Shown in pieces: positions 27,154 through 64,000 of a stretch of 64,000 bases of DNA. The stretch comes from Akkermansia muciniphila (GTDB taxonomy: Bacteria > Verrucomicrobiota > Verrucomicrobiia > Limisphaerales > F1-80-MAGS106): positions 9,862 through 73,861 of the forward strand of contig CAMBEJ010000003.1 of NCBI GenBank assembly GCA_945865375.1, given 5' to 3'. Position 1 is the stretch's first letter, and every line of letters starts with the position of its first letter. A model generated the notes under the pieces. That model had not been told where the DNA came from, ran no database searches, and worked only from the letters and a program-made list of their open reading frames with translations. A program made the translations under genes and the position numbers.

Positions 27154-27177
27154 ATCCGGGTGTTGAATGAAAAAGCC

Positions 27178-28870: not shown

Positions 28871-29089
28871 ACGATTTTTATTATTGAACTGTATTCTGAC
28901 TTGCACGGTGTGAACCACTCAGGGGGTTTTTGTTATTTATTATTGCGTTTGTTTGTTCACCAGTTTACCCCTGCGAACCGCACACCCTCAAAATAGCAGC
29001 CTTGGTGCCAAAGTCAAATTTGATTTGATTGCTTGTTGTCCTCCTCAGTGCTCTGGCTACACTCTCCCTCGAAATCCAGATGCCGTCTC

Positions 29090-32336: not shown

Positions 32337-35063
32337 ATGTCATTTTTTCACCACGGAATGGCATTGTGGGCACTATGCTTGCTCGCTCCCCGCTGCGGTG
32401 CGCAGCATCCAGCACCACGCATGGAGCTTTTTGAGTTCCGCGAACCGCAGCGAACTCGGTATTCCGTGACTCCAGATTCATCCACATCTCCCACCTCGAC
32501 CACGGCAAGAGCTAATTCCCAATGCTCGTGGATCAAAGCGTGGCCTGATGGGGCCTCACGCGATGGTTTTGTGGAATTTGCCAACCGCCTCGTCGTGCAG
32601 CTCGACAACGATCTTGCCTTGCCTTCTTTGTTGAGCACTCAGACGCTTTCCGTGGCACGGCAACTGAACTCGCGCACCTTCATTCTGGTAGCCCGTGATA
32701 CCAAGGCCGCTTTGAGGCAGGCGCAATGGCTGTCCAAACAGCCCGGGGTGGTTGCGTCCTACCCTGTTCCACGCCGTCAGGCGCAACATTTCGGCAGATA
32801 CTCAGATCGACCGAACGATCCCTACTTCTTTCTCCCGAGCAAACCGAACACAGAATGGCAAGCCTACCTCGAAAACCGGGATGCCACCGGCGCGCGACTG
32901 GGAGCGGACTTGAATGTCCGGGCCGCGTGGGGAATTAGCCGTGGACAAGGCATCATTATTGCAATCTGCGATGACGGCTTTGAAATGGACCATCCTGATC
33001 TGCTATCCCAAGTCGCAGGGCCACCTCACCTGGACTTCAGCACACTCTCAACAAACGTCGGCCCTAGCGGCCCATTGTCGAACCACGGAACCGCTGTAGC
33101 GGGCTTGGCCGCCGCCGCCGGGGACAATGGCATTGGCATTTCAGGCGTGGCTCCTGGAGCACAACTGGCGAACTGGGTGGTCTTCGACAAAGATGGAAAG
33201 GTGCCTGATGCCGAAAGGCTCATGGACATGTTCCAATTGCAATCCAACAGAGTCGGAATCCAAAACCACAGCTGGGGAAAAGTGGGAGATAAACAGCTGC
33301 GACTCACCCTTCCGGAGGACATAGGCATTTCCAACGCGGTGACCTTTGGACGCGAAGGCCGCGGTGTGATTTTCGTGCGCGCCGCAGGCAACGGACGAAA
33401 GCTCGGGCACGACGCCAACGATGACGGCTACCAAGCCGATTATCGTGTCATCTCCGTCGCGGCGATGCGGCTCGATGGCCGAGTGGCGAGCTACAGCAAC
33501 CCGGGCGCGTGCATTCTGGTGGGAGCTCTCAGCGGCGATGACACGGGTGAAAATAGTCCTTGCCTTCAAGATTCGCCGAAACTGCTGACCACGGACCGAC
33601 AAGGATCGGCGGGCTTCAACCGAACCACCGACGAGGGCGACCTCTCGAACTACGCGTTCGGAGTCAACGGGTTGAGCGGGACCTCCGCTGCCGCGCCGCA
33701 GATAAGCGGAATCGTCGCGCTCATCCTCGCCGCAAACCGGACCCTCGGCTACCGGGACGTGCAACAGATCCTGGCGGCTTCATCCCGCCATTTTTATTTG
33801 GAGGACCCAAAGCTACGCACCAATGGCGCGGGGTTTGTCATCAGCCACAATCTTGGTTTCGGCGTCCCAGACGCGGGCTTGGCCGTCTCCCGCGCGCAAA
33901 GCTGGATCAACCGACCGAAGCTGGAAATTGTCAGAGATACCCGTGCCCTGAACTCTCCGATTCCCGACCTCGGCCTAAGTGTCGAAGTGGATGGAACGAA
34001 TGTCCCGCCTGCCCTACAATCGATATCCGCGCTCGCGGGCGCGGGGATGCATCCTGACAAAAGCACCGCATCGCTGCCCATGAAAGACCTGGGCAGAGCG
34101 CTGCGACAAGTCACCGAAGATCTCCCTGGCTACTCCGCGCTCATCCAGCGTGACACCGGTTACTTTTGCGAAAAACTGCAAAGGGTCTCCGACGCGGGAG
34201 CCTCCTTTGCTATCGTGCACAATGACCGCGACGCCACGCAACGCATCATCATGGACGCAGCCTGGTGGGTTCCCATTCCTGCGGTCATGATCAACCAAAC
34301 CGACGGAGAGGCCCTGCGATCGTTTCTCTCCAATCAACCCACTGCCAGAGTTCGGCTGAGGTTCGAACCGTTTCGCCACATCTTCAACGTCACCGAGTCG
34401 TTGATTTGTGAGCATGTTGCCTTGCGTGTCGATACCGACCACACCCGGCGAGGCGACCTGCGCATCACCTTGGTTTCACCCGCAGGCACCCGAAGCGTTC
34501 TGCAGCATGCGAACCTGGACGACAGCCCTGGCCCTATCGATTGGACCTACTACTCCGTGCACCATTTCTTTGAGAGCAGCGCCGGGCTGTGGACGGTTGA
34601 AATCAGCGATGAGGAGGAGTTTGGGAGAGGTGCCGTCAAGCAGCTTTGTCTGACAATCCAGGGCGTGCGGATAGCCGACTCCGATCACGATGGATTGGAT
34701 GATGCGTGGGAAATATTGTACTTCGGCAACCTATCCTCGGGGGCGCGCGACGACCCAGACGGAGACGGCTACAACAACGCTCAAGAGCAGTTGTTCGGGA
34801 CGTCACCTACGCAAGCTCCTGAGGGACCTCGGCTCGATATTTTCCTCTGGAGCGATTCCGTCGCACGCCTGAGTTGGTCAAGTCTGGTGAACAAGACTTA
34901 TTTCCTCATCGAACGCAGCCAAGCCAACGGGCCACCTAATCCCATAGCCACGGTGAGAGGAACATTTCCTGAGACTGAATACTTCCTTCCCTTCCTCCCC
35001 ACTCAAAATCACTTCTTCAGCCTCAGAGCCAGTAACATACCGGCGCTCAGGCTCAGTCCCTGA
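32337..35063 (+). CDS. S8 family serine peptidase, kexin/proprotein-convertase-like (PA insert, P-domain, Asp-rich Ca-type repeats)
   Basis: 908 aa with a signal peptide. Catalytic triad contexts are IAICDDGFEMDHPDL (D), HGTAVAGLAAA (H) and GLSGTSAAAPQISGIVALI (S). There is a PA-like insert (GASFAIVHNDRD..IPAVMINQTDGEAL), a P-domain-like block (EHVALRVDTDHTRRGDLRITLVSPAGTRSVL) and the Asp-rich repeats DSDHDGLDD and DPDGDGYNN. Confidence 0.88.
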   Translation: MSFFHHGMALWALCLLAPRCGAQHPAPRMELFEFREPQRTRYSVTPDSSTSPTSTTARANSQCSWIKAWPDGASRDGFVEFANRLVVQLDNDLALPSLLSTQTLSVARQLNSRTFILVARDTKAALRQAQWLSKQPGVVASYPVPRRQAQHFGRYSDRPNDPYFFLPSKPNTEWQAYLENRDATGARLGADLNVRAAWGISRGQGIIIAICDDGFEMDHPDLLSQVAGPPHLDFSTLSTNVGPSGPLSNHGTAVAGLAAAAGDNGIGISGVAPGAQLANWVVFDKDGKVPDAERLMDMFQLQSNRVGIQNHSWGKVGDKQLRLTLPEDIGISNAVTFGREGRGVIFVRAAGNGRKLGHDANDDGYQADYRVISVAAMRLDGRVASYSNPGACILVGALSGDDTGENSPCLQDSPKLLTTDRQGSAGFNRTTDEGDLSNYAFGVNGLSGTSAAAPQISGIVALILAANRTLGYRDVQQILAASSRHFYLEDPKLRTNGAGFVISHNLGFGVPDAGLAVSRAQSWINRPKLEIVRDTRALNSPIPDLGLSVEVDGTNVPPALQSISALAGAGMHPDKSTASLPMKDLGRALRQVTEDLPGYSALIQRDTGYFCEKLQRVSDAGASFAIVHNDRDATQRIIMDAAWWVPIPAVMINQTDGEALRSFLSNQPTARVRLRFEPFRHIFNVTESLICEHVALRVDTDHTRRGDLRITLVSPAGTRSVLQHANLDDSPGPIDWTYYSVHHFFESSAGLWTVEISDEEEFGRGAVKQLCLTIQGVRIADSDHDGLDDAWEILYFGNLSSGARDDPDGDGYNNAQEQLFGTSPTQAPEGPRLDIFLWSDSVARLSWSSLVNKTYFLIERSQANGPPNPIATVRGTFPETEYFLPFLPTQNHFFSLRASNIPALRLSP

Positions 35064-38000
35064 CCCGATAGAACTTCTGCGGGTTCTCGTCCGTGCGGAT
35101 CTGCAGGGTTTGCGAAGGCCCGGCAGGCACGTCCTTCCAAGGTCCAGTGATGGTGTCGGAGACTTGAAGGGTTTGTGAACTGGACCAAGTTATCGAGGCG
35201 GGTCCCTGGGATGCCCTGGTCAGCCCGATTCTTGGGCATGTCACAGTCACCGTGAAAGTGCAAACCAAGGCTGGAGTCACACCATTATAGCGACAGGTCA
35301 CCCGGGTTGTGCCGACGGGGAAAAGGCTTCCCGAAGGCGGACTAGACTCCATGGGGACCACGTCACACCCCACCAGCACAAAGGCATCGAACGTCGCCAC
35401 GGCTCCAGAGTTATTGACGCAGGAGACCACAATGTCCTGTGGACAGCGGGCCACGGGCGCTGCTGTGGAAACTTTAGTTGGAGCAATCACGATCAGGTGA
35501 ACCACACAAACTCCCGTGTTTCCGCGGGCGTCAGTGACCTCAATGAGGATCTCGTGATCACCGGGCCCAACCAACGTTCCAGGCGGTGGTGTCTGGGTAA
35601 TGACTTCGGCGCCAAGCGGACCTGCTGTCGAGTTGGCGGTTCTCGGGCAATTGTCCGTGAAAGAGATCTGCGGTCTGAAATCAGGCACCGGAGTTTGACA
35701 TGCCGGGAATCCCGTGGTTGTCGGTGCTGAATTCAGATCCACGGTCCTCGTTGGCGGACAGTTGACGACTGGAGGCGTTGTGTCTCCGAAGAAGAAACAG
35801 GCGGGCCATCCGTACGATTCATATTTCCCCCATCCGTAGACCGTGACCCCGATCGGGAGCGACGCGGTCACCTTGTGAGATCCGGCGGTAACGGCGACGC
35901 TCGATCCCAAAAAGCCGCTGGCTCCAATCGCCGTGAAAAGCCCCGCCGAGACCGCGACTCCATCCAGCAGGACAGAACCAGAACTCACGGCGGCGGCAGG
36001 GGCGATGATGTTGATGAAGTGCGATGAAAAATCTGTGGCCGGGGTGCAAAACATCTGTGAATGGCTGAACAAGCCTCGGTGCGGCACCTGGAGCATGAAG
36101 GGATCTGCCGACTCCACCAGATCGAAATCGGAACTGTTGGCATACTGGGTTAAATGAACTGGATGACTCGCTGTGATGCGAACCGCCGCCGTCAGCAAAG
36201 TCTGATAGGATTCTCCTCGGTCCAAGGTGGCGACGTTGACGCCATTGATGAACACCTTGGTCTCATCATAAGCGGCCAACACCCGGTAGGTATCCCCGTT
36301 CAACCGAGTTTTGAGGGGGAAAGTGAGATAATCCACGCCCCAGGTTTTGACAGGCAGCAACTGCTCCACGAGGTAATCGCAAAAACCGAGCGCCGCAGAC
36401 TGAACATTGGCGCAAGCATGGCTCCCGAACACCCCGATGGGTTTGTCCGATGAGATGGCCGTGCCAGCCAAATCAGCGGGCAAGCCGTTCAAATTTCTAA
36501 GCTGATAAGTCTGACCGCGTTGCATTTTTATTTGGTATGGAAAACCAGAATCATGACCTTGAGTGACCACGGAAGGGACGATTGTCACCGTCGTGTCGTT
36601 TTCCGTCGCCACCAGGGCAAACTGGCTGCCGTTCAACTCAGGGACATCGGTGTAAACGTTGGAATAACTTTGAACCACGTACTCGTTGCCAAGGGCTTCC
36701 GTTTGGATGCCGAGGAAACCATCCGAGCTGTATTGAACTTTGCTGAGCCCATGAACCACAATGGGCGAAGTGGAAGTGATATGAACACCTTTTGACTCGA
36801 TGATGTCGTTCGCCAACCCCAGATCCGCCGCTTTTGGCAAATCGATCGTGACAGAACCTGAGGCGGGAATCGCGACCGTTTTAGTGAAGTTAAGCCCGGC
36901 AATTTCAACGGTGACCTGCGCGCCAGGATTGCCCAGAGCACACACGCTGGGTTTCACCGGATTGGTCGGATCGGGGGCGTAATTTCTGGGGAACGCGAGC
37001 CAGAAATCAACGCCCATGCATGACAGATCGCAATTGCTGGGCTTCTCAATCGTGACACGGTAATCCTCCACCTCGCCGATTGGCGCAGCGCCTGAGAAAT
37101 TTAATCCTCCCTCTCGACTGAACCGAAAACGCGCAAAAGTCGGCCCTGACTTGGCTTGGGGCGGCACATGGATGCTCAGCAAATTGGAACCCGGAGCCAA
37201 CTCTTTGCTCACAACAATACGATCGAATTCGTCACTCCAATTCCCATTTCCGAGGAAATCGATCCAGGCATCGAGCCTCCCGGAGGTGGATGCGATGACC
37301 TCCAAACGCGCATCCTTGTCGGGGACGAGCGGGGTGAGGAAAATCACCCCGTCCTCATCATCCAACGAGCTTGCATCATCGCCGAGCGCGGCGGAATGAG
37401 GCTGCCCATCCAACTCTTCATCGATTAGTTTTCCGAGATGAAATTCCTGGGTGATGCCGTGGCGGGATCCATTGTTCGACAGCAATGTCGGGTAGGGCGC
37501 GGGGGCATCGCCATAGTCTAACTTCCCAGCCACTGGCGTCTCGATTTTGAAGAGATAATCTTCGATCTCACCGCCTGGCTGGCTGGTGCCATCAAAACGA
37601 TAGCCTCCTTCCCGGCTCAAACGAAATCGAGCAAAGGCATTGCCCAATTTGGCCGCAGTCGGCACGGTGAATGTCAATAAGTTGTCGCCAGGAACCAGGG
37701 ATTGTTTGCTGAAAATGTTCTCCCCAGGGTCAGCCCAAGTTCCATTCCCGTTGAAGTCGATCCACGCGTCGAGCCGACCTGTCAAACCAGCGGCGTCGGA
37801 CAACAAAAGACGCAGTTGCACGACCTTGCCAGGGATCAGGGGAGTGATGGAGGTAATACCATCATCATCCGTGCCCTCCGCCGAAGCATCGGCAGACGGC
37901 TGCCCATCCTTTTCCCCGTCAATCAACTTGCCCAGCGAGAAGCCTTTTACGATGCGAACGCGCGCACCATTGTTTTTCAAGGTCGTTGGGAATGTGGGGT

Positions 38001-40317: not shown

Positions 40318-40335
40318 GTTTTGTAGGCGCCTTGT

Positions 40336-43300: not shown

Positions 43301-43395
43301 AAGGCTGTGGGCTGAGTCTGAGCCGAAGCCACGATGGCCCAAACCATGGCAAGCGAAGCACTGAGGCAAACTCTATGGAAACAGTTCACATTCAT
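40336..43395 (-). CDS. Secreted GEVED-type x2 / IgGFc-binding-N-terminal-like / HYR-like protein (shorter paralog of 35053..40317)
   Basis: 1,019-aa ORF with signal peptide MNVNCFHRVCLSASLAMVWAIVASAQ. Its ATG overlaps the stop of the giant ORF (ATGA at 43392-43395). Same module order as the C-terminal 1,000 aa of the downstream gene. Confidence 0.88.
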   Translation of the reverse strand: MNVNCFHRVCLSASLAMVWAIVASAQTQPTAFDFGDAPDGPYPTTLKNNGARHGILPGFSLGQKVDAEIDGKPNSDATGDDGSPVGAVDDEDGVAFNGSFLPGLKTTLTVRIVGEGRLSAWFDFNSNGSWADAEDQVFADLGLGPGPHVLNVFVPASAKPGRTFARFRLSHQSKLSFTGLASDGEVEDYSVNIESGQLDFGDAPETETTGFPTTLARNGARHQIQTGFHLGKTEDGEPNGLPNASATGDDVSGGASDEDGVRFLSPMVPGTLAQVEVTTTAGGRLDAWVDFNRNSNWVDSGERIFTAQTLVAGVNLLSFSVPVSSQYGTIFARFRLSHEGRLSFDGDGGAGEVEDYAVQIQKPARCDLSCSGTDFWLTFPGNYTPDPSNPVRPSLWVLGNAGTTVTVGIAGLGYSKTVVIPASLCVNVELPKGADLGDANDKVQQKGIHVTASEPVGIHGLSKAQFTSDGYLGLPTEVLGTEYYVLAYRDEQLGIPELNGSEFAVVAPEADTTITVIPSVVTGTHNAGEPFKVNLGAGDVYQLRTTPGAGSDLTGTRVLSDKPIAVFGGHACANVRSASSSFCDYLVEQMTPVSQWATEFYARRLSTRSKGDTFRVLAAYDNTVVSVNGAAVTTLAAGQFYETLRPTLALVATTQITATRPVLVAQYANSSDFDNTPKSDPFMTLVPGRLLFSPQQRFCVPSSGFLTHHVNIIAPTSAVGTVKLDGLVVVGFSAVGASGFSAATATVTVGVHSMTSSLPIGVTVYGWNEYESYGWPACLFFGDITPPVLSCPPPVTVTLGGGANTSGVKPCQALVPDFASKVIYTDNCPRSSVLVPVGSVPTQDPPAGTLVGPGVHEITCSVSDARGNIGYCTTTFTVIDPSPNPSALPELHCPSDLLVKCGDSNGAVVDYQAFATVGCQQVVLDGSPPRKSLFPVGLTVVTCTVPGSAPPIQCSFNIIVSCAQVVANLDQAKLMLEWEGGTTLQMADSPSGPWVDISSTGEIVTKSTSESKQKFFRVR

Positions 43396-58300: not shown

Positions 58301-61300
58301 ACGCCGTCAACGATCCGTTGACTTTCAGGTTCCGAAGCGTGAACTCGGGGAGGGCGGATGCGTCGGTCGCCACGTAGAACCCGCGTGCGTCGGCTCCCAT
58401 CTTGAGCATGAAATCGAAATCCGCAGACATCTCCAGATTACCATGAATTCTCAGCAAACCTCCCAACAAATCCAGGTTGATAGGCACCTCGAACGCGACG
58501 TTTCTTCGGAAGGGCTTGGCGGGGTTGCTGAGGTCCCCAAGGATCAGCTCGTTGGGGTCGTCATCGACCGTGACATTGGAAGGGATGTTATCCAACGATT
58601 CCAAGACCGCCTGGAAGTCGCTCGCGGAATTGATAAGCGTCCCCAGATCCGCCGGTCGAAATTTGCTGCCAGATTCAAAAAGCCGACGCCATAAGGAGTT
58701 GGTATCCCCGCCACTCCCTCCAGGCACAGGAGCGCCTGGGCCGCCGGAAGGAAATCCAATCGGGTTTTTCTTAGCGAAATCCGCCCCGTTTAATCCGCTC
58801 CCCAGGGCATCTCCAATCACCGGCAAATCAGGGCTCAGCGCATCCCCTATCGCTCCGAAAAACCCGGTGATGCTGTCCCAGATATTTCTCCAGAACGATA
58901 CGAAATCCTCGAAGGATGTCGTGTCATTGAAAGTCTCGACATGACGAGCGTAGACTTTCTGCAACCCTAGCTGCCGTATTTCGATCTCTCCTTCAGTGGC
59001 CACTTCCAGCTTGCTGGCGGCTGGGCCTTGGAAGTCTAATTCATCTCCCGGTGCGGCAGCGATTTGGTCTCCCCCATCAAATTCTATTCCCCCGGGAACC
59101 ACGATCTCACCGTGGACGCTATCGAGGATCAGTTTGTCGTTCCCGCCGCCTGTGTGAATCGAAATACGCCGAACGGTCGAAAGCATCACCGACTCCAAAA
59201 GGACCTCATCCACCAGGATCTCGAGTTCGGCAGGAGCCGCAGCAGCCTCCTTTAACCGAAGTTTTACGATGTCATTCCCAGCGCCCGTTTCGATTCTGAG
59301 CACCACGTCATGCACCAACAACCGGCTGATATTCGATAGACTCCAGGCACCTCGTCCTTGGGTTCCGGCCACCAAAATGTCATCCACCGCATCGTAAACC
59401 AAATCAGGGACCGACACATTCGGCATATCCTCACCCAACCTCGACCAGTCGACCAAGCCGAGAGCTACTAATCCCAAATCATCGGCGCTGGTCCAATAAA
59501 CACCGTTATGTGTGCCCGCAGCAATGTAAAGGTTTTCGCCGCTCCGCCAAACCTCCACCGCCTCGAATCCCCCTGTGATCGTTTTTAGATTAGCGGTGGC
59601 ATCTCTGACTGTCAGCGAACCGTTGTCCTCCACTCGAACGTACCATATATGGTTTCTGTCCACGGCAAAAGCGCTGCGCCAATCATTAGGATCCAAGGCG
59701 ATGCTCGTGATCGCACCCGATCCAGGTGCCGTCACGCTTTGGAACTTGGCACCGTCGTCTGAACTCACGGAGATCATCGCCCCGCGAGCCACGTAGATGA
59801 TTCCCGGTTCGTCGGTATTGCTCTCACGCCCGCCGTAAGCCAAGGCGGTCACATCCCGGTTATTTGACGCCAGCGCCGTGAGGACTCGGATCTCATTTCC
59901 TTCGTCCGTGCTCACATACACCATCGTGCGCCCCATGAGCAGCCATTTCTGGTTGATTGCGTTGACCACAAACGGGATGTTTTGGAAACCTTTGAAACCG
60001 CGATCCGTGGCAGCCGTCCCCCCCACTTGCTGAGCATTGTCCAATCCGCTGTTGTTGGCCGCGTTGGATATTGATTTGAGGGTCAAAGTCGTGGCATCGC
60101 TGAAATCATCGGCATCGGAAGGATCGGTAAAGCGTCGCAAAAAAAAGCCGTTGAAATTGTTCGACATGAAGAAGCGCGTGCTCGTCGTACCATCGTAACC
60201 GACCCCCACGTTGTTCCCGTCGCCTCCCGTGAGCGAGTCCCATACCTGGCCACCAGCGGTCTGGCGCACGACCCCGACATCCTGAGTACCCGCGAAGATC
60301 GAGTTGGTGTTATGGTCGTAGGCGACGGAGTGAGCGATCTCAGTCACTCGCAATCCTTGGCCGATGAATTGCCATTTGGGAGCGGGATTGTCCGCTCGTG
60401 GATTGCTCAACCGGTAAGGTCCGCCGTCACTGACCAATGATAGGTCATTTTTGTTAATGGAAAAAACCAGTCCCCTGACGTCACCATGAGGTGCTGACGT
60501 GTTGGCTCCTGGACCGCTGCCATCATCGCTGGTGATGGGCGACCAAGTCGAGGCGTTGCTGTCCCAACGATAGGCTGTGGCCACATACGGGTTAGTGGAG
60601 TAAATGGCGCCTGCGATGTAGACCCTGTCATCACTCAACGGGTCAGCCGCAATCGCGAAGTGCTTGTCACCCTGTCCCGTAGGATTCGTCTGGGGAACAT
60701 CAGACGATGTGGCGCTGGGGAATTTACCTAAGGGGAGCCACGCTCCACCTTGATTTATGGAACGGAAAACCCCTGCAAGCATCGGGCTGTTGGCCTTCGA
60801 GGGGTTTGGACCAATGATGGCCACATACACGGACTTGGTCCCCAACCCGCTCACCGCCAATCGAATTCGGCTGGCCGCGTCGACGGTCTCACCTGCTTCC
60901 GAAGCGACTCCGTCGTTGTCGTAGTCGGGGGTCAGTCCAGCGGTCACATTAGCCCAGGAAATGGAGGCGACCAAGGGTGCATTGGCATTATCCGCCCGGA
61001 AAACGCCCTTCACTCCGGGAGCGCCCAGGACACTCGCAGAGCTGATGGCCACATAAAACCGGCCAGCGCTCCCAGGTTCCTCTGCCACATCGGACACATC
61101 AAACTCGGGCAACGCGGGGGTGCCAATTCCAGACAAACGATCCCAACGCTCCCCGTCATCAAGAGACCGATACAAGCCCCCTCGCCCAGGAACGGAAGCC
61201 GAACTGGATACTTGGTCAAACGTGGATACCAAAACCAAGCCTGCCGTCGTTGAGGAAGGCACTATTCGGGTGATCCTCAGCCCATCGAAACTGCCGACCT

Positions 61301-62567
61301 CCTCCCAGGTGAGCCCGTCATCCAGCGACCGGAACACGCCCGCTGATTGTCCCCCTTTACCGGCGCTGCTGAATGTCCCCGTTCCCACGAACACCGTTCC
61401 GGGATTCACGGGGCTCACCGCCAAGGCTCCGATGGACAACGAAGGAAGATGGTCGCCGATGGGGGTCCAAGTCGGGCTCGCCGTGTTGAAATTCGTCGAT
61501 TTCCAAACCCCTCCGCTCGCTGCCCCCAGGTAAGCGACGGCGGCATCCGTCGGATGAGGAACCAAAGTTTGAACTGCCCCGATAACAGGATTGTTTGGCG
61601 AGACCAGCGTGTTCGCGTTATTGATGATGCTGAAAGGGCCCTCCTCCTTCCATGTCACGGCCTCGTTCAGGAGGGTGACTGAGGGCAGGCTCGGAACAAA
61701 CCGAAGCACCAAATCCTTGCTGTTCGTAGATATATCCAGAAGAAAACTGCCGGAGCCCAGATCGTTGACGCTCGCGAAGGCGGAGGCATCCAACGTAAAC
61801 TTGCTGCGCTCGAATCCCTGAATCCCTTGGGTGGTGTGCAGGATCCTCCAACTGCCAGCCGCTGTCTTGTCGAAATGTTCGGCTGAAGTCGCGATACCAA
61901 CGCCGTTTACGGAGTTAATTTCGATTTTGAAAGTACTTGCGGCTGTAGCGCTTATAGTTAATATCCCATGCACCTCAACAAGGTCCCAGCCCGGAGACTC
62001 CCCTTCAACACCCGCTGCGTCATCCATATCCCAGACGTAATTCTCGGTTCCGCTCCAAGCTTCATCCGTCGCCACAGACTCCTTGCCCGACAATTGGGTC
62101 GCTGAACTCGTTGATTCGCTCACTAAAGTTCGGCGAATCGAACCGGAATTGGGAGAGTTTAGATCGAAGGCAGGGGGCCCATTGGCGGACCGGAGTGTTT
62201 CAACGATTTGCTGAATGGTCGGATTCAATATCTGGCCCACATCCCCCTCGGAGACACTTTTCTCAAGGGTTGGCTGTGAACCAGACTCTTCATCGAGTAG
62301 TTTAGCCGCTTCCAGGTGCCCGGCAACTCCTCTGTCATCCAAACCGATGTCATCCGAAGCAATCGACGAAGCGGGCTCCGGAGTCGCGGTCGGAGTCGGA
62401 GTCGGGGCTACCAAGGGTTCGTAGGTGCTAAAATCTGACTCAAACAATTTCTCGGCATCACCCAATGAAAGCTGTTGAGAAATGTCTGCATGGGTTCGTT
62501 GTTCGGCTTCGGTGACAGGAACAGGAAGCAGGGGGCCTGGGAACGCGTCTCCCGACGGCGAGAGCAA
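43392..62567 (-). CDS. Giant (at least 6,391 aa) repetitive extracellular protein: Asp-box/BNR propeller, long unassigned region, RTX Ca-binding repeats, Calx-beta-like x6, SdrD-B/CnaB-like x3
   Basis: Single uninterrupted ORF. The track start is TTG 62567, but the frame stays open to 62675 (see findings). Asp-box motifs are RSLDDGLTWEE and RSLDDGERWDRL. There are many GGxGxDxL nonapeptides. Calx-beta-like blocks have the form GTAT.G.DY......F..GET.K...V.I..D...E..E.F. SdrD-B-like blocks include GRVWLDNNPADNRR..GVKDVQVNLFD. Confidence 0.9.
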   Translation of the reverse strand: MLSPSGDAFPGPLLPVPVTEAEQRTHADISQQLSLGDAEKLFESDFSTYEPLVAPTPTPTATPEPASSIASDDIGLDDRGVAGHLEAAKLLDEESGSQPTLEKSVSEGDVGQILNPTIQQIVETLRSANGPPAFDLNSPNSGSIRRTLVSESTSSATQLSGKESVATDEAWSGTENYVWDMDDAAGVEGESPGWDLVEVHGILTISATAASTFKIEINSVNGVGIATSAEHFDKTAAGSWRILHTTQGIQGFERSKFTLDASAFASVNDLGSGSFLLDISTNSKDLVLRFVPSLPSVTLLNEAVTWKEEGPFSIINNANTLVSPNNPVIGAVQTLVPHPTDAAVAYLGAASGGVWKSTNFNTASPTWTPIGDHLPSLSIGALAVSPVNPGTVFVGTGTFSSAGKGGQSAGVFRSLDDGLTWEEVGSFDGLRITRIVPSSTTAGLVLVSTFDQVSSSASVPGRGGLYRSLDDGERWDRLSGIGTPALPEFDVSDVAEEPGSAGRFYVAISSASVLGAPGVKGVFRADNANAPLVASISWANVTAGLTPDYDNDGVASEAGETVDAASRIRLAVSGLGTKSVYVAIIGPNPSKANSPMLAGVFRSINQGGAWLPLGKFPSATSSDVPQTNPTGQGDKHFAIAADPLSDDRVYIAGAIYSTNPYVATAYRWDSNASTWSPITSDDGSGPGANTSAPHGDVRGLVFSINKNDLSLVSDGGPYRLSNPRADNPAPKWQFIGQGLRVTEIAHSVAYDHNTNSIFAGTQDVGVVRQTAGGQVWDSLTGGDGNNVGVGYDGTTSTRFFMSNNFNGFFLRRFTDPSDADDFSDATTLTLKSISNAANNSGLDNAQQVGGTAATDRGFKGFQNIPFVVNAINQKWLLMGRTMVYVSTDEGNEIRVLTALASNNRDVTALAYGGRESNTDEPGIIYVARGAMISVSSDDGAKFQSVTAPGSGAITSIALDPNDWRSAFAVDRNHIWYVRVEDNGSLTVRDATANLKTITGGFEAVEVWRSGENLYIAAGTHNGVYWTSADDLGLVALGLVDWSRLGEDMPNVSVPDLVYDAVDDILVAGTQGRGAWSLSNISRLLVHDVVLRIETGAGNDIVKLRLKEAAAAPAELEILVDEVLLESVMLSTVRRISIHTGGGNDKLILDSVHGEIVVPGGIEFDGGDQIAAAPGDELDFQGPAASKLEVATEGEIEIRQLGLQKVYARHVETFNDTTSFEDFVSFWRNIWDSITGFFGAIGDALSPDLPVIGDALGSGLNGADFAKKNPIGFPSGGPGAPVPGGSGGDTNSLWRRLFESGSKFRPADLGTLINSASDFQAVLESLDNIPSNVTVDDDPNELILGDLSNPAKPFRRNVAFEVPINLDLLGGLLRIHGNLEMSADFDFMLKMGADARGFYVATDASALPEFTLRNLKVNGSLTASGNFGLLAVTLENATINLASGVGIKIDITEPVDPFGHVSDGKIRLYEFLNNPVSFFNIGLATDALADDLVLQMGIRVAAMEPGGPPLFDFPLATVQLIWPEINDPLKVTVKPVGGPAEILYRLLNFRIDDLYSELKRTINGLGGLSGSAMLGLELPFGSGLDVGASFDFSGAFLDKIFAKLVDIQIVASTGNGNATGKLAQGQLTANAVFALTIDNAPAKTVTVTKASTDTGADKNNTLADLVKDINEALTAAGLAGKAQAFLKGPQIALRLIAGGSLKITGEASNPAFTEIGFTRDDGGMSLPKFPSLQQVVAELKKAIAPFDINPRVDIANKTFALDLSFGYHVIKTTPFQYDSDIGLGDLADVSASGIFTITGDASVALTIGVDLKDATAPKLITSPTLPPPSSGSTTAVATFGINLNDGEYRAGFLLPKKTRASLQELINDLNGLLAGAADFRGTPLRQVIHFTATTSGPGLILEAVNEDLDADGKLDKVNEDTNGNHVLDAAEDLDADGRLDVNEDVLIDDPLFKNNLKLDSWLGKVGSIAIESANNDPIVTELGFNNVIPARSGSWGMFLENVNLGGTLAVAANNLKAKARFAIFEISTSGGTASGALSVTLKLSNPHAADPLHPTRLDLDVLLRHMNDLGSYVTPDTQTSGFVDIQLKNIKVLPDLPTASGNPLIPAGSQLGIFVPDFHDIHFNPDPYDVATNKKGVFVTFPAIGSFGDFRCTTFLDVVAILDSLSDELEGLKAFSFLSEPLPLVNVSVSDVLDFAGDLSRLFKKLSQGDGAAITQLETDIENFLGLSPSKFSITLDDARKSGPAGGSAAVRAVAWFNPSGAKNALLFTAKNTGTEFNQWKIVYDDDGSLPSGTDAADVLADAVKKTLTIHYNATYTKAETVRLKVNSSATSPFTASLDTSAGPVGDGPTNNGSNTITETALKFHLQFGLSYGNTLPLQFSLGEIVNLLPPGHPARALLEGVSQIIQVEGDAKLNVTASATLDLDFGLDLSGGCNLIPFLYDTTAMTLSAAVRATGVNLSAGIGSLKVSVKNGTVTLDKDGDPTTTDSATFAVGFKDNNGDGRHYFRSGEKFFDSDNIGMTLTGAASANLPLFALDSLPIGGATDGPDAGNEPDNWLVFQSGPLDKLFSGDTSLVLVRAPDISSLFDDINACDLIANPDILVDGLDALLGVIQDGLGSKLSRNMPLVGGQFGKAADFIMEFRTGLLAEFRQTLAEGGDPISLAKQAIFNALGTPGLDILAGVDGSPITNVDQVDIQCVGNAVKFNIRLKKAAKLLDTSSNPIDFDIGIPGLGLSVDGNVKIEAGFDLKLKFVVSATDGFYFDTSDPEELRLDFNVTIPGLKAKGQLLFLQLDVSDESDGKSLVGETRESSRFTGYFSVDLKDPVGSGNKLTIGDMTSSAFSFDKFIEAKLGAEANLALDLSLSFGGDTRFPRIVAEFDLKWSWVLGGDGAGSLAFGFHNVSLDIGSFISQFMGPIFKELKEITGPLEPVVDVITAPLPIISDIAGRDYSLLDLAEAFGMITPSTREFIDVLVVVIRLANSTVANDGSILLPLGSFDIEMDKFGNLQRKAGQVDGATVGIGDVGKFIVAPGWVTGSQISPANAGQAVGKENVSGGILSFLDDLEKIGITLPFLSIGEISKLFLGKPISLFEYHLPVLDFQAGFEIAIPIIGPLYVKFGGKIGAYADLTIGYDTFGIQKFFSSEDKNALDIFDGFYIKDVDKDGKDVPELSFFGQLYAAGSIDIVIAEAGVRGGLEVQVDFNLNDPDDDGRVRISEIVANAKKDIRCIFDIHGKFTAFLEAYLIVDLLLFKIDATFRFAEITLLEFDITCPEPKLADYVDASGNELDAADAGGSLRLNIGKYANEREIGDTTDGNENYKVVHVEDTAAGETVDVSFGGIKQTYRGVKKIWGRGGAGNDVINLRTVTSPVDSSKPERGLHGDDGNDKLYAGRGGGRYDGDNGNDIISAEDVADGYDGRGDEFHGGAGSDELTGLEGDDNLYGDDGSDTLFGGAGNDHLWGGTGNDKLYGSLGDDVIEGNEGADTIDGDEGDDIVSGGAGDDTITGGLGADRLVGGDGDDNIDGGLGNDIILGDNGTIVSFLQATGVDGNGNDLLAGGPGTDVLFGAGGRDALYGGTLLVSGKATPGDTDTDTQDFIDGGDQDDIIYADDAHSAALTTFPGANIGNMVWFDSLDAHGIRNNVRDSHEMGVPGIKVELLDSTDAVVGKTTTDTGGLFKFTGLKGGDYKLRYTLPTGLAFVNKDTGSDDEADSDVNTGTGLTETFHLNDAQIDYSRDAGVKGTQPLLVIDNPSITEADTGQQLLVFTVTLTSVSDQIITVAYESVKGTATNIADYSTVDYTLVFRPGETQKSIEVPILGDFMDEPDQTFTVKLYDPWNAELDPAHKEGVGTIVDDDDAPGVSAVDGVQLSLINPVPEATGMTFVVRLSHPSWQPIKIQYLTQQVVDSSGRRVVDAARPILDYSAVVETVPGVMTFASGEVEKTVVIPIFGDALSEYDEQFQLRIQLDPSTPSDAAKVVRPVATARILDDDPRPFVEFFPTITKTVLEGHAGNTPVTLNVHLSAVSGRDVVINWNTSPGTASNAAPTGQLPDYVYKFETVTIKEGSTDSAIEFEVVGDTHLEPDEYFFVNLLSATNGRLNVIAADLNHAVITIKNDESGDPGPWYVEFARKHYEVKESEGSLDITLVRAEGSSEPVAVYWSVGGTATAGSDYTGIWEKGTSGPRGFVRFEVGETAKVFTVPIVDNDAYEGDETIILNLLNPTGGPVRGLNPTTIITIQEDDPLPTLQIFAVNNMGPDLPDGNSEEDPVPPPGDFDPAFLLFDVIAEGKTEVPVKIDWIALNGTAIAPLDFLPSGGTLNFGVFSGTKILQVKVPIIDDGLSEGLESVIGMISNPVNAEIVYFQDTTYIYDNDFSLVSGRVFYDVDNDGFFDADTDWGLPNVTVKLKDFQNEYTVKTEADGSYKANVYLGTLVVTVDESTTPVDSALTTGNNPLIAEVSTTVLKLRDFGFVTPPKKGKPDTSTGNGLAYFNDVVYGGPGSDVLDGGPGNDWLVGGHWLGPAYGCTGKPYSASLKQADFPDGNRIYVDPASIPAPATITGRVWLDNNPADNRRAVAEVGVKDVQVNLFDSEWVLVGITYTDAVGIYKFEKLAACSYQVQFLVPAGYTLATANVGTDDRDSDANGITGLTDPVVVAAGQTLGNVDAGLHPVAPGTAGPWSLQFSHLVYSVRETDGFATITILRTPGSTQPVGTYWTQGVTATSGLDYTGIWENGAAGVPGRRTIGFGVDENELSFIIPIKKDALTETPPEYFKLFLKNPTGGPVYGNLPEAIVLIFDNPCPDDDTIYGQDGDDIILGDFGYFSNAGLAQLLGGVGNDVLVAGTGADTVYGEGGNDRIEGGVGDDTLNGGGENDSYLFDGDKNLGNDLIIEVASPFGGNDTLDLSQTSSRAISLDLGSTLLQQVTTTLSLTLPAGNVIENAIGGDQNDVLSGNSLDNLLSGGFGNDQFEGKGGNDDLRGGPGSDTYYFDADTILGHDRVVESLSLGTFRDQDRVDFSKTTTLALKLDLGQTISQVVNGNLSLTLSSALGIENLYGGTGNDVLIGNKRNNRIRGGEGNDQVDGGPPGDTSNDTLVEERGGGFNLTDTTLTLISAGETDTYADFENVSLVGDDSDNTLDAQTFGGEVRLEGRGGNDTLIGGSGQNFLSGGSGNDSLTGNGLDTIFEERDANFTLTNSQLKVGLSEVDTYFGTIERVELTGGEGDNLLDAAAFTTGTARLDGRGGNDTLIGTNGPDELIGGAGDDSLQGRDGADVYYFDTDSPLSNVGGDLLIESTTGGVDTLDFAGTTSLGITLDLGSALAQTININLKLRLSARDVFENIIGGQNNDRLLGNDLVNQIEGLRGSDTLTGAKGNDVLNGGVGIDQFGKPFVDRVLEERNANMVLTDSSLVFGGGETDSIIEIEAATLIGGVSNNTLNATAFTGSATLDGRGADDVLLGGSGDDVLIGGAGNDSLTGSGGDDTYSFDADNDLGTDTLNELVGGGIDTLDYAGTSTAIVSVSLLLDTAQIAARTPAPGPLTRHTLDLFSGISIENVIGGSLNDVLSGNSLNNRILGGAGNDFLLGLAGDDWMEGGDGDDLYLFDADGPLGFDHIWEEVGTGGNDTLDFVLTSSSVTVNLGRGIKQVVNPNLSLRLIVAHGVESLIGGSGNDFLIGNSLKNRLSGLGGNDGLAGRRGNDTYVFDADFPLGTDTVVEAEDVEGGVDTLDLSTTTSLPTNVDLSHDTPPAQVVNVNLALNLSSGESLENVLGGQFGSVLTGNSLDNLIVGGSGPDVLAGKAGDDILEGKGGNDNLAGQAGNDTYRFDGDAETGTATIVESVNGGIDTLDFSQTTGVGISINLGNALPQQVKPGLFLNLLANDRIENVIGGSGDDVIQGNSLENHLAGGPGNDRYVFDGDLILGSDIILETSGIGGGVDTLDFSQTTGLSIRVDLAQVTRQIVVIDETTLPDATIHLALEIRNPESIESVIGGAKADKIIGNALNNSLTGGPGNDTLIGGDGVDFVTETRDSDFKLSNATLKIGPSESDSLSSMEGAILTGGAASNTLDASGFTLGAVTLDGGLGNDILRGGASAEDRVVAVRDANMVLTNGTLQIGLETDSITGIERATLVGGAGPNSISAAGFTLGPVLLAGGDGADTLRGGSGDDILVGGLGNDVLDGGPAGLDKVFEIRDANFVLLNGSLQIGAETDTLIGIRAAELTGGDGNNHLDATNFGLGSVVLDGGPGDDNLKGGSRNDRLNGGRGNDTLGGGAGGDVYVFGPSWGVDLVVETPAIISDVDEILFTSDSITATLKPGVGSKVVSNIGVNSVSFADDTVEKIVGSSGSDTFIITPSAVMPLQIEGGGGLEDVLNYDTLGGVTAQTATTLTTPGHKPVTFSGIAVVNLVDPSSIP

Positions 62568-62818
62568 GCCGTCCGAGGAAAGATAGACGCGAGATTCTAG
62601 AAGTTGAAGCTCGAAAGTTTGAATAAGCCTTTTTCTGTTAAATGCCGCCAGGACACAAGGGGCTAAATTGAGCCATTAGTCAAGACCGGCCCGCCCCCGC
62701 CAGCCCGGCAAATCTCACGATCCCGTCAGGTCACGAACTCTGAGGCTTGCAGCAAAACAGCGATGGCGCTCTGAATTGAAGCACCATCCCCGCCGCCGAC
62801 ATCAACATCAATTAGGGT

Positions 62819-64000
62819 TTATTGCCCTTCGATCACCCGATAGAACCGCATGGGGTTCTTGCCCGTATCTTTATCGGTGTAATCGATCACACCGGTGGCT
62901 GTGTTCTCGCTCGCCAGAGTCTGCCATGTCAACAGATCCGTCGAACCCTGCACTCGATACGGCCCGGCTGCCGATGTGAAGCGCAGGACAAACCCGTTCG
63001 CGCTGAGCGAAGCCGTCAGCTTAGTGGGCAACACCACCTTCGTCGTCACTTTCAGCACAGCTTCGTCGCTCGTCGCCGTCCCAGCCGAGCTCTTCACCAC
63101 GACCGAGTACTTCCCCGCGTCCGCGAGCGTCACCTTCGCGAAACTCAGCGTTCCGCCCGTCCGGCTCGTCACATCCTGCCCATCCTTGCGCCACTGGAAC
63201 GTGAACGGCCCGGTCCCGCGTGCTTGCACGAAGAACGCCGCCGCTTCGCCCTCCAGCACTGTCACAGCCTGCGGCTGCGTCGATATCACCGGCGGCGTCG
63301 AAGCTATCGTCACCCCAAAGCTCGTCGTCGCTGTCGCCCCGCCATCGTCGATCGCGGTCAGCGTTATCACCGCTTTGCCGGTCTTCGCCGCGCTCGGATA
63401 CACGGTTACCGTTCGTTGAGCTCCGTTCCCGCTCACCAGAATACCCGCGTCCGCGACAAGCGTCTGAGTGTCGGACCGTGCCAAAACACTGATGGAATCC
63501 AAGGGGGAATCGATGTCGCCCACCGTGAAACTGACGGATTCGGTGGGTGTGCCGGCTTTGCCCGCGACATCCGTGATCGTCGAGATCGTGGGAGAATCGT
63601 TCACGGTCACCACCGACAACGTCACCGTCGCGGGTGCCGAATCCAGGGCGCCGTCATTGACCCGGTACGTGAATTGATCGTTGCCGAATGTGTCGGCGCT
63701 GGCTGTATAGGTCAACTTGGGAACAGTCCCGCTAAGCTTGCCCTTGAGTGGCTGAGTCAGTACGGTAAACGTCAGTGCTTTACCCTCCGGATCCCTCCCA
63801 GCCAGCACCAATGCCTGGGCCGTGTCCTCGGCCAAGGAGAGATTCAGGTCGCTGGCCTCAGGCTGCTGGTTGACCGCCTCCACCGTCACCTTGAAGTTTC
63901 CGCTGGTCACATTTGCCCCGTCCTCAACCAGCAGTGTCAACGTCGCTGTGCCCGTCTTGTTGAACTCAGGCGTCAACAAGATGGTTCGATCCGTGCCGCT
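62819..64000 (-). CDS. Cadherin-like / Ig I-set-like surface protein (N-terminus beyond the window end)
   Basis: The ORF is open to position 64000. Module junctions are VNQQPEA and VNDSPTI. Has an I-set-like block (PPVISTQPQAVTVLEGEAAAFF..FQWRKDG..AGKYSVVVKS). C-terminal module ends in RFYRVIEGQ. Confidence 0.85.
   Translation of the reverse strand, partial: SGTDRTILLTPEFNKTGTATLTLLVEDGANVTSGNFKVTVEAVNQQPEASDLNLSLAEDTAQALVLAGRDPEGKALTFTVLTQPLKGKLSGTVPKLTYTASADTFGNDQFTYRVNDGALDSAPATVTLSVVTVNDSPTISTITDVAGKAGTPTESVSFTVGDIDSPLDSISVLARSDTQTLVADAGILVSGNGAQRTVTVYPSAAKTGKAVITLTAIDDGGATATTSFGVTIASTPPVISTQPQAVTVLEGEAAAFFVQARGTGPFTFQWRKDGQDVTSRTGGTLSFAKVTLADAGKYSVVVKSSAGTATSDEAVLKVTTKVVLPTKLTASLSANGFVLRFTSAAGPYRVQGSTDLLTWQTLASENTATGVIDYTDKDTGKNPMRFYRVIEGQ

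What the first reader, a model, noticed from the sequence alone, without database searches (positions are those of the whole stretch)
35053..64000. Minus-strand operon of four very large surface proteins, with a translationally coupled GEVED / IgGFc-binding-like / HYR paralog pair and no secretion machinery in sight
Seen in sequence: four same-strand ORFs run 64000<-62819 (cadherin-like/Ig, partial), 62567<-43392 (giant), 43395<-40336 (1,019 aa) and 40317<-35053 (1,754 aa). The giant ORF's TGA overlaps the next gene's ATG (ATGA at 43392-43395), and the following gap is 18 bp. The two downstream proteins are paralogs with the same module order. First come two ~150-aa modules reading DFGDAP..NGARH..DDEDGV..GRLDAW(I/V)DF..NG.W..FARFR(L/F)S..GEVEDY. 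Then comes a ~350-aa region opening with (T/V)DFWL(T/A)FP.NY, then Cys-bearing HYR-like modules, then a short terminal module. The longer paralog adds ~6 cadherin-like modules and an Ig I-set-like module that recurs in the 62819 protein. Both paralogs have Sec signal peptides; the giant protein shows none. Inference: these could be accessory, tip or anchoring subunits co-produced with a giant RTX/Calx-beta adhesin or fibre. I do not know this gene combination as a described system. The window contains no T1SS (ABC/MFP/TolC), T5SS, T9SS, sortase or exosortase genes.
Basis: partly seen in the sequence, partly recalled or inferred. Interest (0 to 1): 0.7.

Follow-up and report, generated by a model that had tools for sequence, protein, structure and literature searches.

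The report
Giant surface protein with conserved partner
A 6,391-residue calcium-binding surface protein of a soil or freshwater Verrucomicrobiota bacterium is always followed, often with overlapping stop and start codons, by a secreted partner built around the mucus-protein domain FCGBP_N; this two-gene unit appears undescribed and is present in cultured strains where it can be tested.

Summary
The window comes from a Verrucomicrobiota metagenome-assembled genome.

The main result is conservation. I fetched 77 related loci from one-genome-per-species assemblies. In all 42 where the start of the FCGBP_N (Pfam IgGFc_binding) gene could be seen and the locus was of this type, a giant RTX/Calx-beta ORF ends within -179 to +127 bp of it. 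Twelve have the same 4-bp overlap. These 42 come from 37 assemblies, including two cultured Limisphaera strains; L. ngatamarikiensis shows the same arrangement. None of 22 FCGBP_N homologues outside this locus type has such a neighbour. Flanking genes differ between loci.

- The conserved unit is the giant plus one partner. A tandem second partner occurs in six lineages only.
- The constant part of the partner is FCGBP_N, HYR and a 55-residue C-terminal module. N-terminal heads vary (GEVED, cadherin-like, Kelch, NHL, LamG).
- The fourth, upstream gene is probably a separate transcript.
- The giant is Cys-poor, acidic and lacks a signal peptide. The partners are Cys-rich with Sec-type N-termini, so the export routes differ.

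Best reading: a co-produced two-component surface fibre or adhesin. A physical complex and type I secretion are inferred, not shown. I rate it a new variant of a known kind, of moderate interest.

The parts
43392..62567 (-). Giant protein gene (6,391 aa, TTG start, no signal peptide, 9 Cys, pI 4.2)
   Evidence: ORF. RTX x22, Calx-beta x6 and SdrD_B x3. Composition. Hydropathy. The same 6,391-aa gene call appears in public assemblies.
59328..61580 (-). Giant residues ~330-1080: Sortilin-Vps10/BNR-type beta-propeller region
   Evidence: Weak Pfam Sortilin-Vps10 and NCBIfam F510_1955 hits. 299 homologues carry PF15902/PF02012 at 23-31% identity over ~70% of the query.
52668..59267 (-). Giant residues ~1100-3300: non-repetitive region with no recognisable family
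   Evidence: No Pfam hit at E<=5 apart from noise. No PDB sequence match. No internal repeats.
48198..52550 (-). Giant residues ~3340-4790: first RTX block, then SdrD_B / Calx-beta stalk modules
   Evidence: Pfam stretches. GGxGxD positions. Internal similarity.
43395..48197 (-). Giant residues ~4790-6391: about fifteen ~100-residue RTX-containing repeats and the C-terminal tail
   Evidence: Self-comparison. Pfam HemolysinCabind and Peptidase_M10_C. Alignment of C-terminal ends across loci.
43392..43395 (-). ATGA stop/start overlap between the giant and the short partner
   Evidence: The same 4-bp overlap occurs in 12 of 42 related loci, and 18 of 42 overlap in some way.
40336..43395 (-). Short partner (1,019 aa): signal peptide, 2 GEVED modules, FCGBP_N, 2 HYR-like Cys modules, C-terminal module
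   Evidence: Full-length model with pLDDT 80, all-beta. 20 Cys.
41026..42312 (-). FCGBP_N (Pfam IgGFc_binding) domain of the short partner, residues 362-790
   Evidence: Pfam E 8e-68. Domain model pLDDT 94.2 and pTM 0.94. No PDB fold match above TM 0.17. No PDB sequence match.
40339..40515 (-). C-terminal ~55-residue module ending ...KFFRVR
   Evidence: Conserved at the end of nearly all family members. No Pfam model. 10,686 cluster representatives match the profile.
35053..40317 (-). Long partner (1,754 aa from GTG, 1,744 aa from ATG 40287): signal peptide, 6 cadherin-like modules, I-set, 2 GEVED, FCGBP_N, HYR, C-terminal module
62568..62818 (-). 251-bp spacer upstream of the giant, with a terminator-like hairpin (62788-62762) and a promoter-like site (62623-62594)
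   Evidence: These are consensus matches only.
62819..64000 (-). 3' end of an upstream cadherin-like/Big_9 + I-set protein that ends in the same C-terminal module; probably a separate transcription unit

Best explanation
The locus encodes a conserved bicistronic surface-protein module of subdivision-3 Verrucomicrobiota (Limisphaerales/Pedosphaera group).

Shown:
- A ~6,000-6,800-residue RTX/Calx-beta/SdrD_B protein is always followed on the same strand by a gene for a secreted all-beta protein.
- The gap is nil or short.
- The constant core of that protein is FCGBP_N, HYR and a 55-residue C-terminal module.

Inferred mechanism:
- The two genes are co-transcribed, and in many lineages translationally coupled. 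The partner would then be made when and where the giant's C-terminus is completed.
- The giant is acidic, nearly Cys-free, has no signal peptide and is RTX-rich at its C-terminus. It would leave the cell by a Sec-independent, type-I-like route and fold with calcium outside.
- The partner has a Sec-type N-terminus and 1-2% Cys. It would go through the periplasm and form disulfides.
- The partner's constant core docks on the giant or at its base. Its variable N-terminal head (GEVED, cadherin-like, Kelch, NHL or LamG) supplies binding specificity. Together they form a two-component adhesive fibre.

In this window a duplicated second partner adds a cadherin-like/I-set stalk.
For: Conservation:
- 42 of 42 testable loci from 37 assemblies have a giant-like ORF ending -179 to +127 bp from the partner start.
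- 12 have the exact 4-bp overlap and 31 have gaps of 30 bp or less.
- Six independent look-ups show giants of 5,968-6,841 aa with the same Pfam order.
- Flanking genes are not conserved in those look-ups, so the pair itself is the unit.
- Four assemblies carry 2-3 separate modules.

Specificity:
- None of 22 FCGBP_N homologues outside this locus type has such a neighbour.

Constant core and variable head.

Opposite export signatures:
- Giant: 9 Cys in 6,391 residues, pI 4.2, 48 GGxGxD motifs, no hydrophobic N-terminus or transmembrane segment.
- Partners: 20 and 18 Cys, with hydrophobic N-terminal cores.
- 83 of 109 family members that start with Met have such a core.

Domain context:
- GEVED was defined in the fibrillar adhesin CshA (PMC10952558).
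- Calx-beta and Ig-like extenders with C-terminal RTX repeats are the architecture of RTX adhesins (PMC12153261).
- BapP of P. tunicata also has an N-terminal beta-propeller, which its authors propose as an anchor (PMC12153261).
Against: - No physical contact, co-transcription or surface location has been shown.
- No T1SS ABC, MFP or TolC gene lies in the 43 kb of the window on the partner side of the giant. None lies near the module in the related loci, where probes with the window's own ABC ATPase, MFP and RND proteins gave one unrelated ABC hit. Known T1SS adhesins are usually encoded next to their ABC and MFP genes (PMC12153261).
- The region upstream of the giants could not be examined outside this window.
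- How a Sec-exported partner would cross the outer membrane is unknown.
- The census started from the partner. Giants that lack a partner would not have been seen.
- All three cultured Limisphaera species carry the module, but L. ngatamarikiensis is reported not to aggregate (PMC13608581). The module therefore does not simply predict aggregation.
Confidence: 0.5

Rival explanations
1. The two proteins are co-regulated but independent surface adhesins. The genes stay together only because they are expressed together, as a surface-protein island, and the products do not touch.
For: - Both are built from generic extracellular modules.
- The upstream neighbour is a third adhesin-like protein.
- Several modules can occur per genome.
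- No interaction data exist.
Against: - Co-regulation alone rarely preserves immediate adjacency with start/stop overlap in 42 of 42 loci while every flanking gene changes.
- The constant FCGBP_N core with a swappable head suggests the core has a role specific to the giant.
Confidence: 0.22
2. The partner is a periplasmic or outer-membrane-associated maturation, anchoring or export factor for the giant, not a distal subunit. It would be analogous in logic to SprF for SprB, or to the retention and processing partners of LapA.
For: - There is strict one-to-one linkage, with translational coupling in many lineages.
- The partner enters the periplasm by Sec while the giant does not.
- FCGBP_N has strongly conserved H, C, D and E positions: H570 (90% or more of sequences), and invariant C572, C583, D584, E588, D672 and D674.
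- No secretion genes are nearby.
Against: - The partner is a long string of adhesin-type beta-sandwich modules with variable lectin-like or propeller heads. That arrangement suits ligand binding better than a housekeeping assembly factor.
- It has no beta-barrel, POTRA, protease or lipoprotein signature.
- The two conserved Cys are ten residues apart and may simply form a disulfide.
Confidence: 0.15
3. The pair forms a surface-layer or matrix, or a polysaccharide-capture scaffold, rather than an adhesin. The giant's N-terminal Sortilin/BNR propeller and the partner's lectin-like heads would bind glycans for these polysaccharide-degrading bacteria.
For: - Homologues of the propeller are annotated as BNR-type 'glycosyl hydrolase'.
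- Partner heads include LamG, Kelch and NHL.
- Limisphaera strains use many polysaccharides, and aggregated cells of one strain sit in a fibrillar matrix (PMC13608581).
Against: - No catalytic family was detected.
- No polysaccharide-utilisation genes are conserved next to the module.
- This reading is largely compatible with the main explanation and differs only in the ligand.
Confidence: 0.1

Closest known systems
Giant RTX (Bap/LapA/SiiE/MpIBP-type) adhesins secreted by type I systems
   Same: - Very large, acidic and Cys-poor, with no Sec signal.
- Non-repetitive N-terminal region, Ca-binding Ig-like/Calx-beta extender and C-terminal RTX repeats.
- An N-terminal beta-propeller, as in BapP (PMC12153261).
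   Different: - No ABC/MFP/TolC genes were seen next to it.
- No LapA-type retention module or LapG/LapD was detected.
- 2,200 residues have no recognisable family.
- It has an obligate downstream Sec-exported partner, which is not part of any described RTX-adhesin locus I know of or could find.
SprB-SprF type pairs of Bacteroidota (giant gliding adhesin with a cognate adjacent partner gene); comparison from my own knowledge
   Same: A giant surface adhesin gene is followed by a cognate partner gene, and there are several such pairs per genome. FCGBP_N also co-occurs with SprB and CHU_C domains in Bacteroidota (PMC4948705).
   Different: SprF is a PorP-like outer-membrane protein and the system depends on T9SS C-terminal domains. 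Neither is present here. The partner here is a 1,000-2,500-residue soluble multi-domain protein.
FCGBP_N / Pfam IgGFc_binding (PF17517) proteins of animals and bacteria
   Same: A clear family match (E 8e-68). The proteins are secreted and of unknown function (PMC4948705).
   Different: - The domain here is internal, not N-terminal.
- It is fused to GEVED and HYR and linked to a giant RTX gene.
- Verrucomicrobiota were not among the groups highlighted in 2016.
- Homologues in other phyla lack the giant neighbour.
CshA-type fibrillar adhesins with a GEVED domain
   Same: GEVED modules in an extracellular multi-domain protein (PMC10952558).
   Different: - No NR2 domain.
- No LPXTG anchor.
- A diderm host.
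- GEVED is dispensable in other lineages of this module.
SwmA/SwmB of marine Synechococcus (an RTX-containing surface protein plus a giant surface protein); comparison from my own knowledge
   Same: A giant protein and a smaller Ca-binding surface protein work together at the cell surface.
   Different: The domains are unrelated, the genes are not adjacent or coupled, and the function there is swimming motility.

Membership tests
T1SS-secreted RTX adhesin (LapA/SiiE/MpIBP class) | C-terminal RTX nonapeptide repeats | tested here: met
   22 HemolysinCabind stretches at E 3e-106. 48 GGxGxD motifs, concentrated at residues 3350-3561 and 4820-6321.
T1SS-secreted RTX adhesin (LapA/SiiE/MpIBP class) | No N-terminal Sec signal, low Cys content, acidic pI | tested here: met
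   Maximum 12-residue hydropathy is 1.1 in the first 150 residues, and there is no transmembrane-like window. 0.14% Cys and pI 4.2.
T1SS-secreted RTX adhesin (LapA/SiiE/MpIBP class) | Dedicated ABC exporter / membrane-fusion protein (and TolC) encoded nearby | tested here: not met
   None in the window. The MFP at 5408-6712 is paired with an AcrB-type RND pump, and the ABC at 26374-27921 is ABC-2 type. None recurs in the flanks of related loci. The side upstream of the giant was not visible in other genomes, and such genes can lie elsewhere in a genome.
T1SS-secreted RTX adhesin (LapA/SiiE/MpIBP class) | N-terminal retention module with LapG-type processing | tested here: inconclusive
   No family hit in residues 1-330. 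No LapG or LapD-like gene in the window. A ~750-residue propeller follows and could act as a plug, but that is inference only.
T1SS-secreted RTX adhesin (LapA/SiiE/MpIBP class) | Demonstrated secretion and surface display | not testable with these tools
   Needs experiments in Limisphaera spp.
FCGBP_N (Pfam PF17517 IgGFc_binding) | Match to the family profile above the gathering score | tested here: met
   229 and 219 bits against a cut-off of 25.6.
FCGBP_N (Pfam PF17517 IgGFc_binding) | IgG-Fc binding, as the name implies | not testable with these tools
   Not reproducible even for human FCGBP, according to PMC11796319. The name should not be read as a function.
GEVED domain (PF20009) | Match above the gathering score, with the GEVED motif | tested here: met
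   95 and 83 bits against a cut-off of 24.4, two stretches each. The GEVEDY and GEIEDY motifs are visible.
HYR domain (PF02494) | Match above the gathering score | tested here: inconclusive
   Long partner: 22.2 bits against a cut-off of 21.7, with no stretch individually significant. Short partner: no hit. Most homologues carry PF02494 in precomputed annotation, and L058 scores E 9e-30.
Two-partner secretion (TpsA/TpsB) | Partner is an Omp85-type beta-barrel with POTRA domains; the exoprotein has a Sec signal and a TPS domain | tested here: not met
   The partner is a chain of beta-sandwich domains with no ShlB or POTRA hit. The giant lacks a signal peptide and a TPS domain.
T9SS cargo (SprB-like) | T9SS C-terminal domain (Por_Secre_tail / CHU_C) | tested here: not met
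   No such hit in any of the four proteins.

The most novel reading that the evidence does not exclude
FCGBP_N-HYR proteins are cognate docking subunits with interchangeable ligand-binding heads for a lineage-specific class of giant RTX fibres. This would be a new two-component surface organelle of Verrucomicrobiota. It would also give the first functional context for the FCGBP_N domain shared with animal mucus proteins. In addition, the unnamed ~55-residue C-terminal '...FFRVR' module would be a widespread surface-anchoring or sorting tag of this phylum, comparable in role to T9SS C-terminal domains or PEP-CTERM.
Probability: 0.25. Interest if true: 0.75.

Novelty: new variant of a known kind. 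Interest (0 to 1): 0.6.

Why it matters
- Giant RTX-type surface proteins are common but are usually treated as single-chain adhesins serviced by an adjacent type I system. Here the adjacent conserved gene is instead a large Sec-exported protein, tied to the giant in every testable genome. That points to a two-chain architecture or a dedicated assembly partner.
- This is the first strong genomic-context clue for FCGBP_N. The domain is shared by bacteria and animal mucus proteins, its function is unknown, and I found no solved structure of similar sequence or fold.
- Three cultured Limisphaera species carry the module, so knock-outs, surface proteomics and imaging are feasible.
- The locus also exposes a very common unnamed C-terminal module (more than 10,000 protein clusters) that may explain how Verrucomicrobiota retain or sort surface proteins.

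Tried and rejected
- **Homologue search with the giant's N-terminal 1,100 residues.** It returned only distant Sortilin/BNR propeller proteins and not even the query's own protein. Very long proteins seem absent from that index, so orthologous giants and their N-termini could not be collected.
- **Homologue search with the partial upstream protein.** It gave only generic Big_9/I-set proteins and no self hit. The upstream neighbourhood could not be walked.
- **Metagenome scan with the giant's N-terminus.** It gave three weak propeller hits and no orthologous giant. What lies upstream of the giants in other genomes, including any T1SS genes, is still unknown.
- **Foldseek of the full-length partner model against the PDB.** It matched only generic strings of macroglobulin/Ig-like domains (TM ~0.14), which is uninformative.
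- **PDB sequence searches with the partner, the FCGBP_N profile and two giant segments.** Nothing useful.
- **Subtilase at 32337-35063 as a processing enzyme for the module.** Rejected, because it is absent from all other lineages.
- **One fused protein made by frameshifting at the ATGA.** Rejected, because the partner begins with its own signal peptide in most family members.
- **Chance adjacency.** Rejected by 42 of 42 loci.
- **The C-terminal module as a strictly terminal sorting signal.** Weakened, because it also occurs in internal tandem arrays.
- **Rfam and tRNA scans of the window.** Nothing found.

Full report
**What is in the sequence**

- The giant ORF (43392..62567, 6,391 aa) ends in a TGA that overlaps the ATG of the next gene, as ATGA at 43392-43395.
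- The third gene follows after 18 bp if it starts at GTG 40317. It follows after 48 bp if it starts at ATG 40287. Public gene calls use the ATG, and it yields a textbook signal peptide.
- The two downstream proteins are collinear paralogues with 51% identity over 1,009 residues.
  - two GEVED domains and one IgGFc_binding domain in each paralogue;
  - six cadherin-like (Big_9, Cadherin_5, tandem-95) modules and an I-set domain in the longer one and in the 62819 protein;
  - RTX x22, Calx-beta x6 and SdrD_B x3 in the giant.
- HYR is only borderline in this window but is regular in the family.
- The 62819 protein aligns collinearly with residues 437-761 of the long paralogue (35% identity).

**Origin and surroundings**

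- The identical short partner is encoded on contigs of assembly GCA_947484475.1 and several ENA and Logan assemblies.
- Its relatives are almost all Verrucomicrobiota of the Limisphaerales/Pedosphaera group.
- The rest of the window holds an RND pump with its adaptor, an MMPL protein, an ABC-2 exporter, a large WD40-repeat protein, housekeeping genes and a convergent subtilase.
- It holds no T1SS-type ABC exporter, TolC, T5SS, T9SS or sortase-like gene.
- No Rfam family and no tRNA were found.

**Conservation, the decisive result**

*Look-ups of individual homologues*
- Six partner homologues at 43-65% identity were looked up in public assemblies. Each sits directly behind a giant of 5,968-6,841 aa with the same Pfam order.
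- The downstream genes are all different in these six.
- One of the six is the cultured Limisphaera ngatamarikiensis.

*Genome scan*
- I scanned one genome per species with an alignment of the family and analysed the 77 loci returned by ORF tracing and tblastn.
- In every one of the 42 loci of this type where the partner's start lies inside the contig, an ORF homologous to the giant's C-terminal half ends between -179 and +127 bp from that start. In 40 of them this ORF runs off the locus edge.
- These 42 loci come from 37 assemblies and include Limisphaera sp. VF-2 and 4302-co.
- Twelve have the same 4-bp overlap, 18 overlap in some way, and 31 have gaps of 30 bp or less.
- The 13 loci scored as uninformative are all cut by a contig end inside the partner gene.
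- None of 22 FCGBP_N homologues outside this locus type has such a neighbour. Their records are labelled Actinomycetota, Bacteroidota, Myxococcus, Nitrotoga and others.
- Four assemblies carry two or three separate modules.

1. *The conserved unit is the giant plus one partner.* A tandem second partner occurs in the window and five other lineages only.
2. *The invariant part of the partner is not GEVED.* It is FCGBP_N, followed in most lineages by HYR(-like) modules and a ~55-residue C-terminal module.
   - In other lineages the N-terminal portion is a Kelch propeller (L058, L068), an NHL propeller (L067, which also carries a LamG domain C-terminal to FCGBP_N), LamG (L041) or a lamin-tail domain (L050).
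   - The C-terminal module is present in its standard form in 11 of the 13 other-lineage partners tested. In L090, L041 and L050 only a divergent ending (...FLRLKLK) is visible.
   - A constant core with a swappable head is the pattern expected of a docking part plus a specificity part.
3. *The upstream 62819 gene is probably a separate transcript.* It is separated from the giant by 251 bp. These contain a 10-pair hairpin with a T-run about 30 nt after its stop, and a promoter-like TTCAAA-18-TAGAAT about 30 nt before the giant's start. These are weak consensus evidence only.

**Anatomy of the giant**

| Residues | Content |
|---|---|
| 1-330 | No hydrophobic segment and no family hit |
| ~330-1080 | Related at 23-31% identity to Sortilin-Vps10/BNR propeller proteins |
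| ~1100-3300 | Non-repetitive, no Pfam or PDB relative |
| ~3340-3600 | First RTX block |
| ~3610-4790 | SdrD_B and Calx-beta modules |
| 4790-6391 | About fifteen ~100-residue RTX-containing repeats |

- The protein has 9 Cys (0.14%), pI 4.2 and 48 GGxGxD motifs.
- Giant C-termini fall into two conserved types:
  - window clade: ...DVLNYDALGLATTQT...GFE.V.VLN plus a variable tail;
  - Limisphaera clade: ...STVE(Y/F)SF at the very end.

**Anatomy of the partner**

- The full-length model is all-beta (pLDDT 80).
- The FCGBP_N domain alone (residues 362-790) folds as one compact unit with pLDDT 94 and pTM 0.94.
- It has no convincing match among solved structures, by fold (best TM 0.17) or by sequence.
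- The partners have 2.0% and 1.0% Cys and Sec-type N-termini. Of 109 family members that start with Met, 83 have such a hydrophobic core.
- The giant and the partner therefore carry opposite export signatures.

**What the literature says**

- FCGBP_N was defined in 2016 as a domain shared by animal FCGBP and many secreted bacterial proteins of unknown function. Those were mostly Bacteroidota and Myxococcales, where it co-occurs with CHU_C, PKD and SprB domains (PMC4948705).
- IgG binding by FCGBP could not be reproduced (PMC11796319).
- GEVED was defined in the CshA fibrillar-adhesin family (PMC10952558).
- RTX adhesins are normally encoded next to their ABC and MFP genes. BapP has an N-terminal propeller that its authors suggest may anchor it (PMC12153261).
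- Limisphaera strains VF2 and 4302-co are cultured and form aggregates. Aggregated VF2 cells are surrounded by a fibrillar matrix (PMC13608581).
- Searches for GEVED, PF17517, HYR, Calx-beta or RTX terms together with Verrucomicrobia found no description of this gene pair.

**How it most likely works**

*Shown*
- Strict adjacency.
- Frequent start/stop overlap.
- A constant core with a variable head.
- Opposite export signatures.

*Inferred*
- The genes are co-transcribed and translation is coupled.
- The giant leaves by a Sec-independent, type-I-like route and folds with calcium.
- The partner passes through the periplasm and then associates with the giant through its FCGBP_N-HYR core.
- The result is a two-component adhesive fibre whose binding specificity lies at least partly in the partner's head.

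I put about 0.5 on this. Rivals:
- co-regulated but non-interacting adhesins (0.22);
- a periplasmic or outer-membrane assembly or anchoring factor, in the logic of SprF for SprB (0.15);
- a glycan-capture or matrix scaffold (0.1), which overlaps with the main reading.

Main weaknesses:
- no interaction or expression data;
- no T1SS genes seen on the sides I could inspect;
- no view upstream of the giants in other genomes;
- no known route for the partner across the outer membrane;
- a census that started from the partner only.

**Seen in passing**

The 55-residue C-terminal module (L.L.W..g..LQ.A....GPW..V....SPY........FFRVR) has no Pfam or NCBIfam model.
- A profile of it finds 10,686 protein-cluster representatives at E<=1e-3.
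- In the best 148, single-copy cases are at the extreme C-terminus in 44 of 48. Others carry tandem arrays.
- Passenger domains are diverse: LamG, RCC1, I-set, GH115_C and Golvesin_C.
- It could be a surface-retention or sorting module of this phylum. That is untested.

**Verdict**

- The module is real, conserved, apparently undescribed, and testable in culture.
- It is best filed as a new variant of the giant RTX-adhesin theme, not a new category.
- Interest 0.6.

Noticed in passing
window 40339-40515, 35056-35241 and 62822-63025 (all minus strand): An unnamed ~55-residue C-terminal module ending in (F/Y)(F/Y)R(V/L)(R/K) has no Pfam or NCBIfam model. Its profile matches 10,686 protein-cluster representatives. 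It is terminal in 44 of 48 single-copy cases, also forms tandem arrays, and is attached to very diverse passenger domains.
   Followed up: partly
window 41026-42312 (minus strand): The FCGBP_N (IgGFc_binding) domain gives a very confident compact model (pLDDT 94, pTM 0.94). It has no solved structure of similar fold (best TM 0.17) or sequence.
   Followed up: yes
L058, L067, L068, L041 and L050 (partner genes directly after the giant): In other lineages the partner keeps FCGBP_N, usually with HYR, but replaces GEVED with Kelch or NHL propellers, LamG or a lamin-tail domain. The heads look interchangeable.
   Followed up: partly
window 32337-35063 (+): A subtilase with PA and proprotein-convertase P domains converges on the long partner and overlaps its 3' end by 11 bp. 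It is not conserved next to the module in other lineages.
   Followed up: partly
window 62568-62818: The 251-bp spacer upstream of the giant holds a terminator-like hairpin (62788-62762) and a promoter-like site (62623-62594). This suggests the upstream cadherin-like gene is a separate transcript.
   Followed up: partly
L025/L026/L053, L033, L047, L056 and L068 (record titles): Contigs carrying this Verrucomicrobiota-type module are labelled Akkermansia muciniphila, Bifidobacteriaceae, Methylomirabilota, Acidoferrum or Omnitrophota. These are probably binning or labelling errors in the source MAGs.
   Followed up: no
L095 10001-14575 (protein P0121): A planctomycete-like protein fuses a Sortilin-type propeller, SdrD_B, GEVED, cadherin-like modules and a dockerin in one 1,524-residue chain. 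Domains that are split between giant and partner here are joined there.
   Followed up: no
giant C-termini in L007-L090: There are two conserved types of giant C-terminus. Those ending ...STVE(Y/F)SF come with gaps of 8-127 bp. Those with GFE.V.VLN plus a variable tail usually overlap the partner's start.
   Followed up: no
window 2163-5321 (-) and 29033-32239 (+): A 1,052-residue protein made of eukaryote-like WD40 propellers, and a 1,068-residue protein with a central spermine/spermidine-synthase domain.
   Followed up: no
L083 9764-15048: In Myxococcus xanthus the FCGBP_N protein (with Big_1 and PKD domains) is followed by a MacB-type permease (MacB_PCD + FtsX), not by a giant RTX gene.
   Followed up: no
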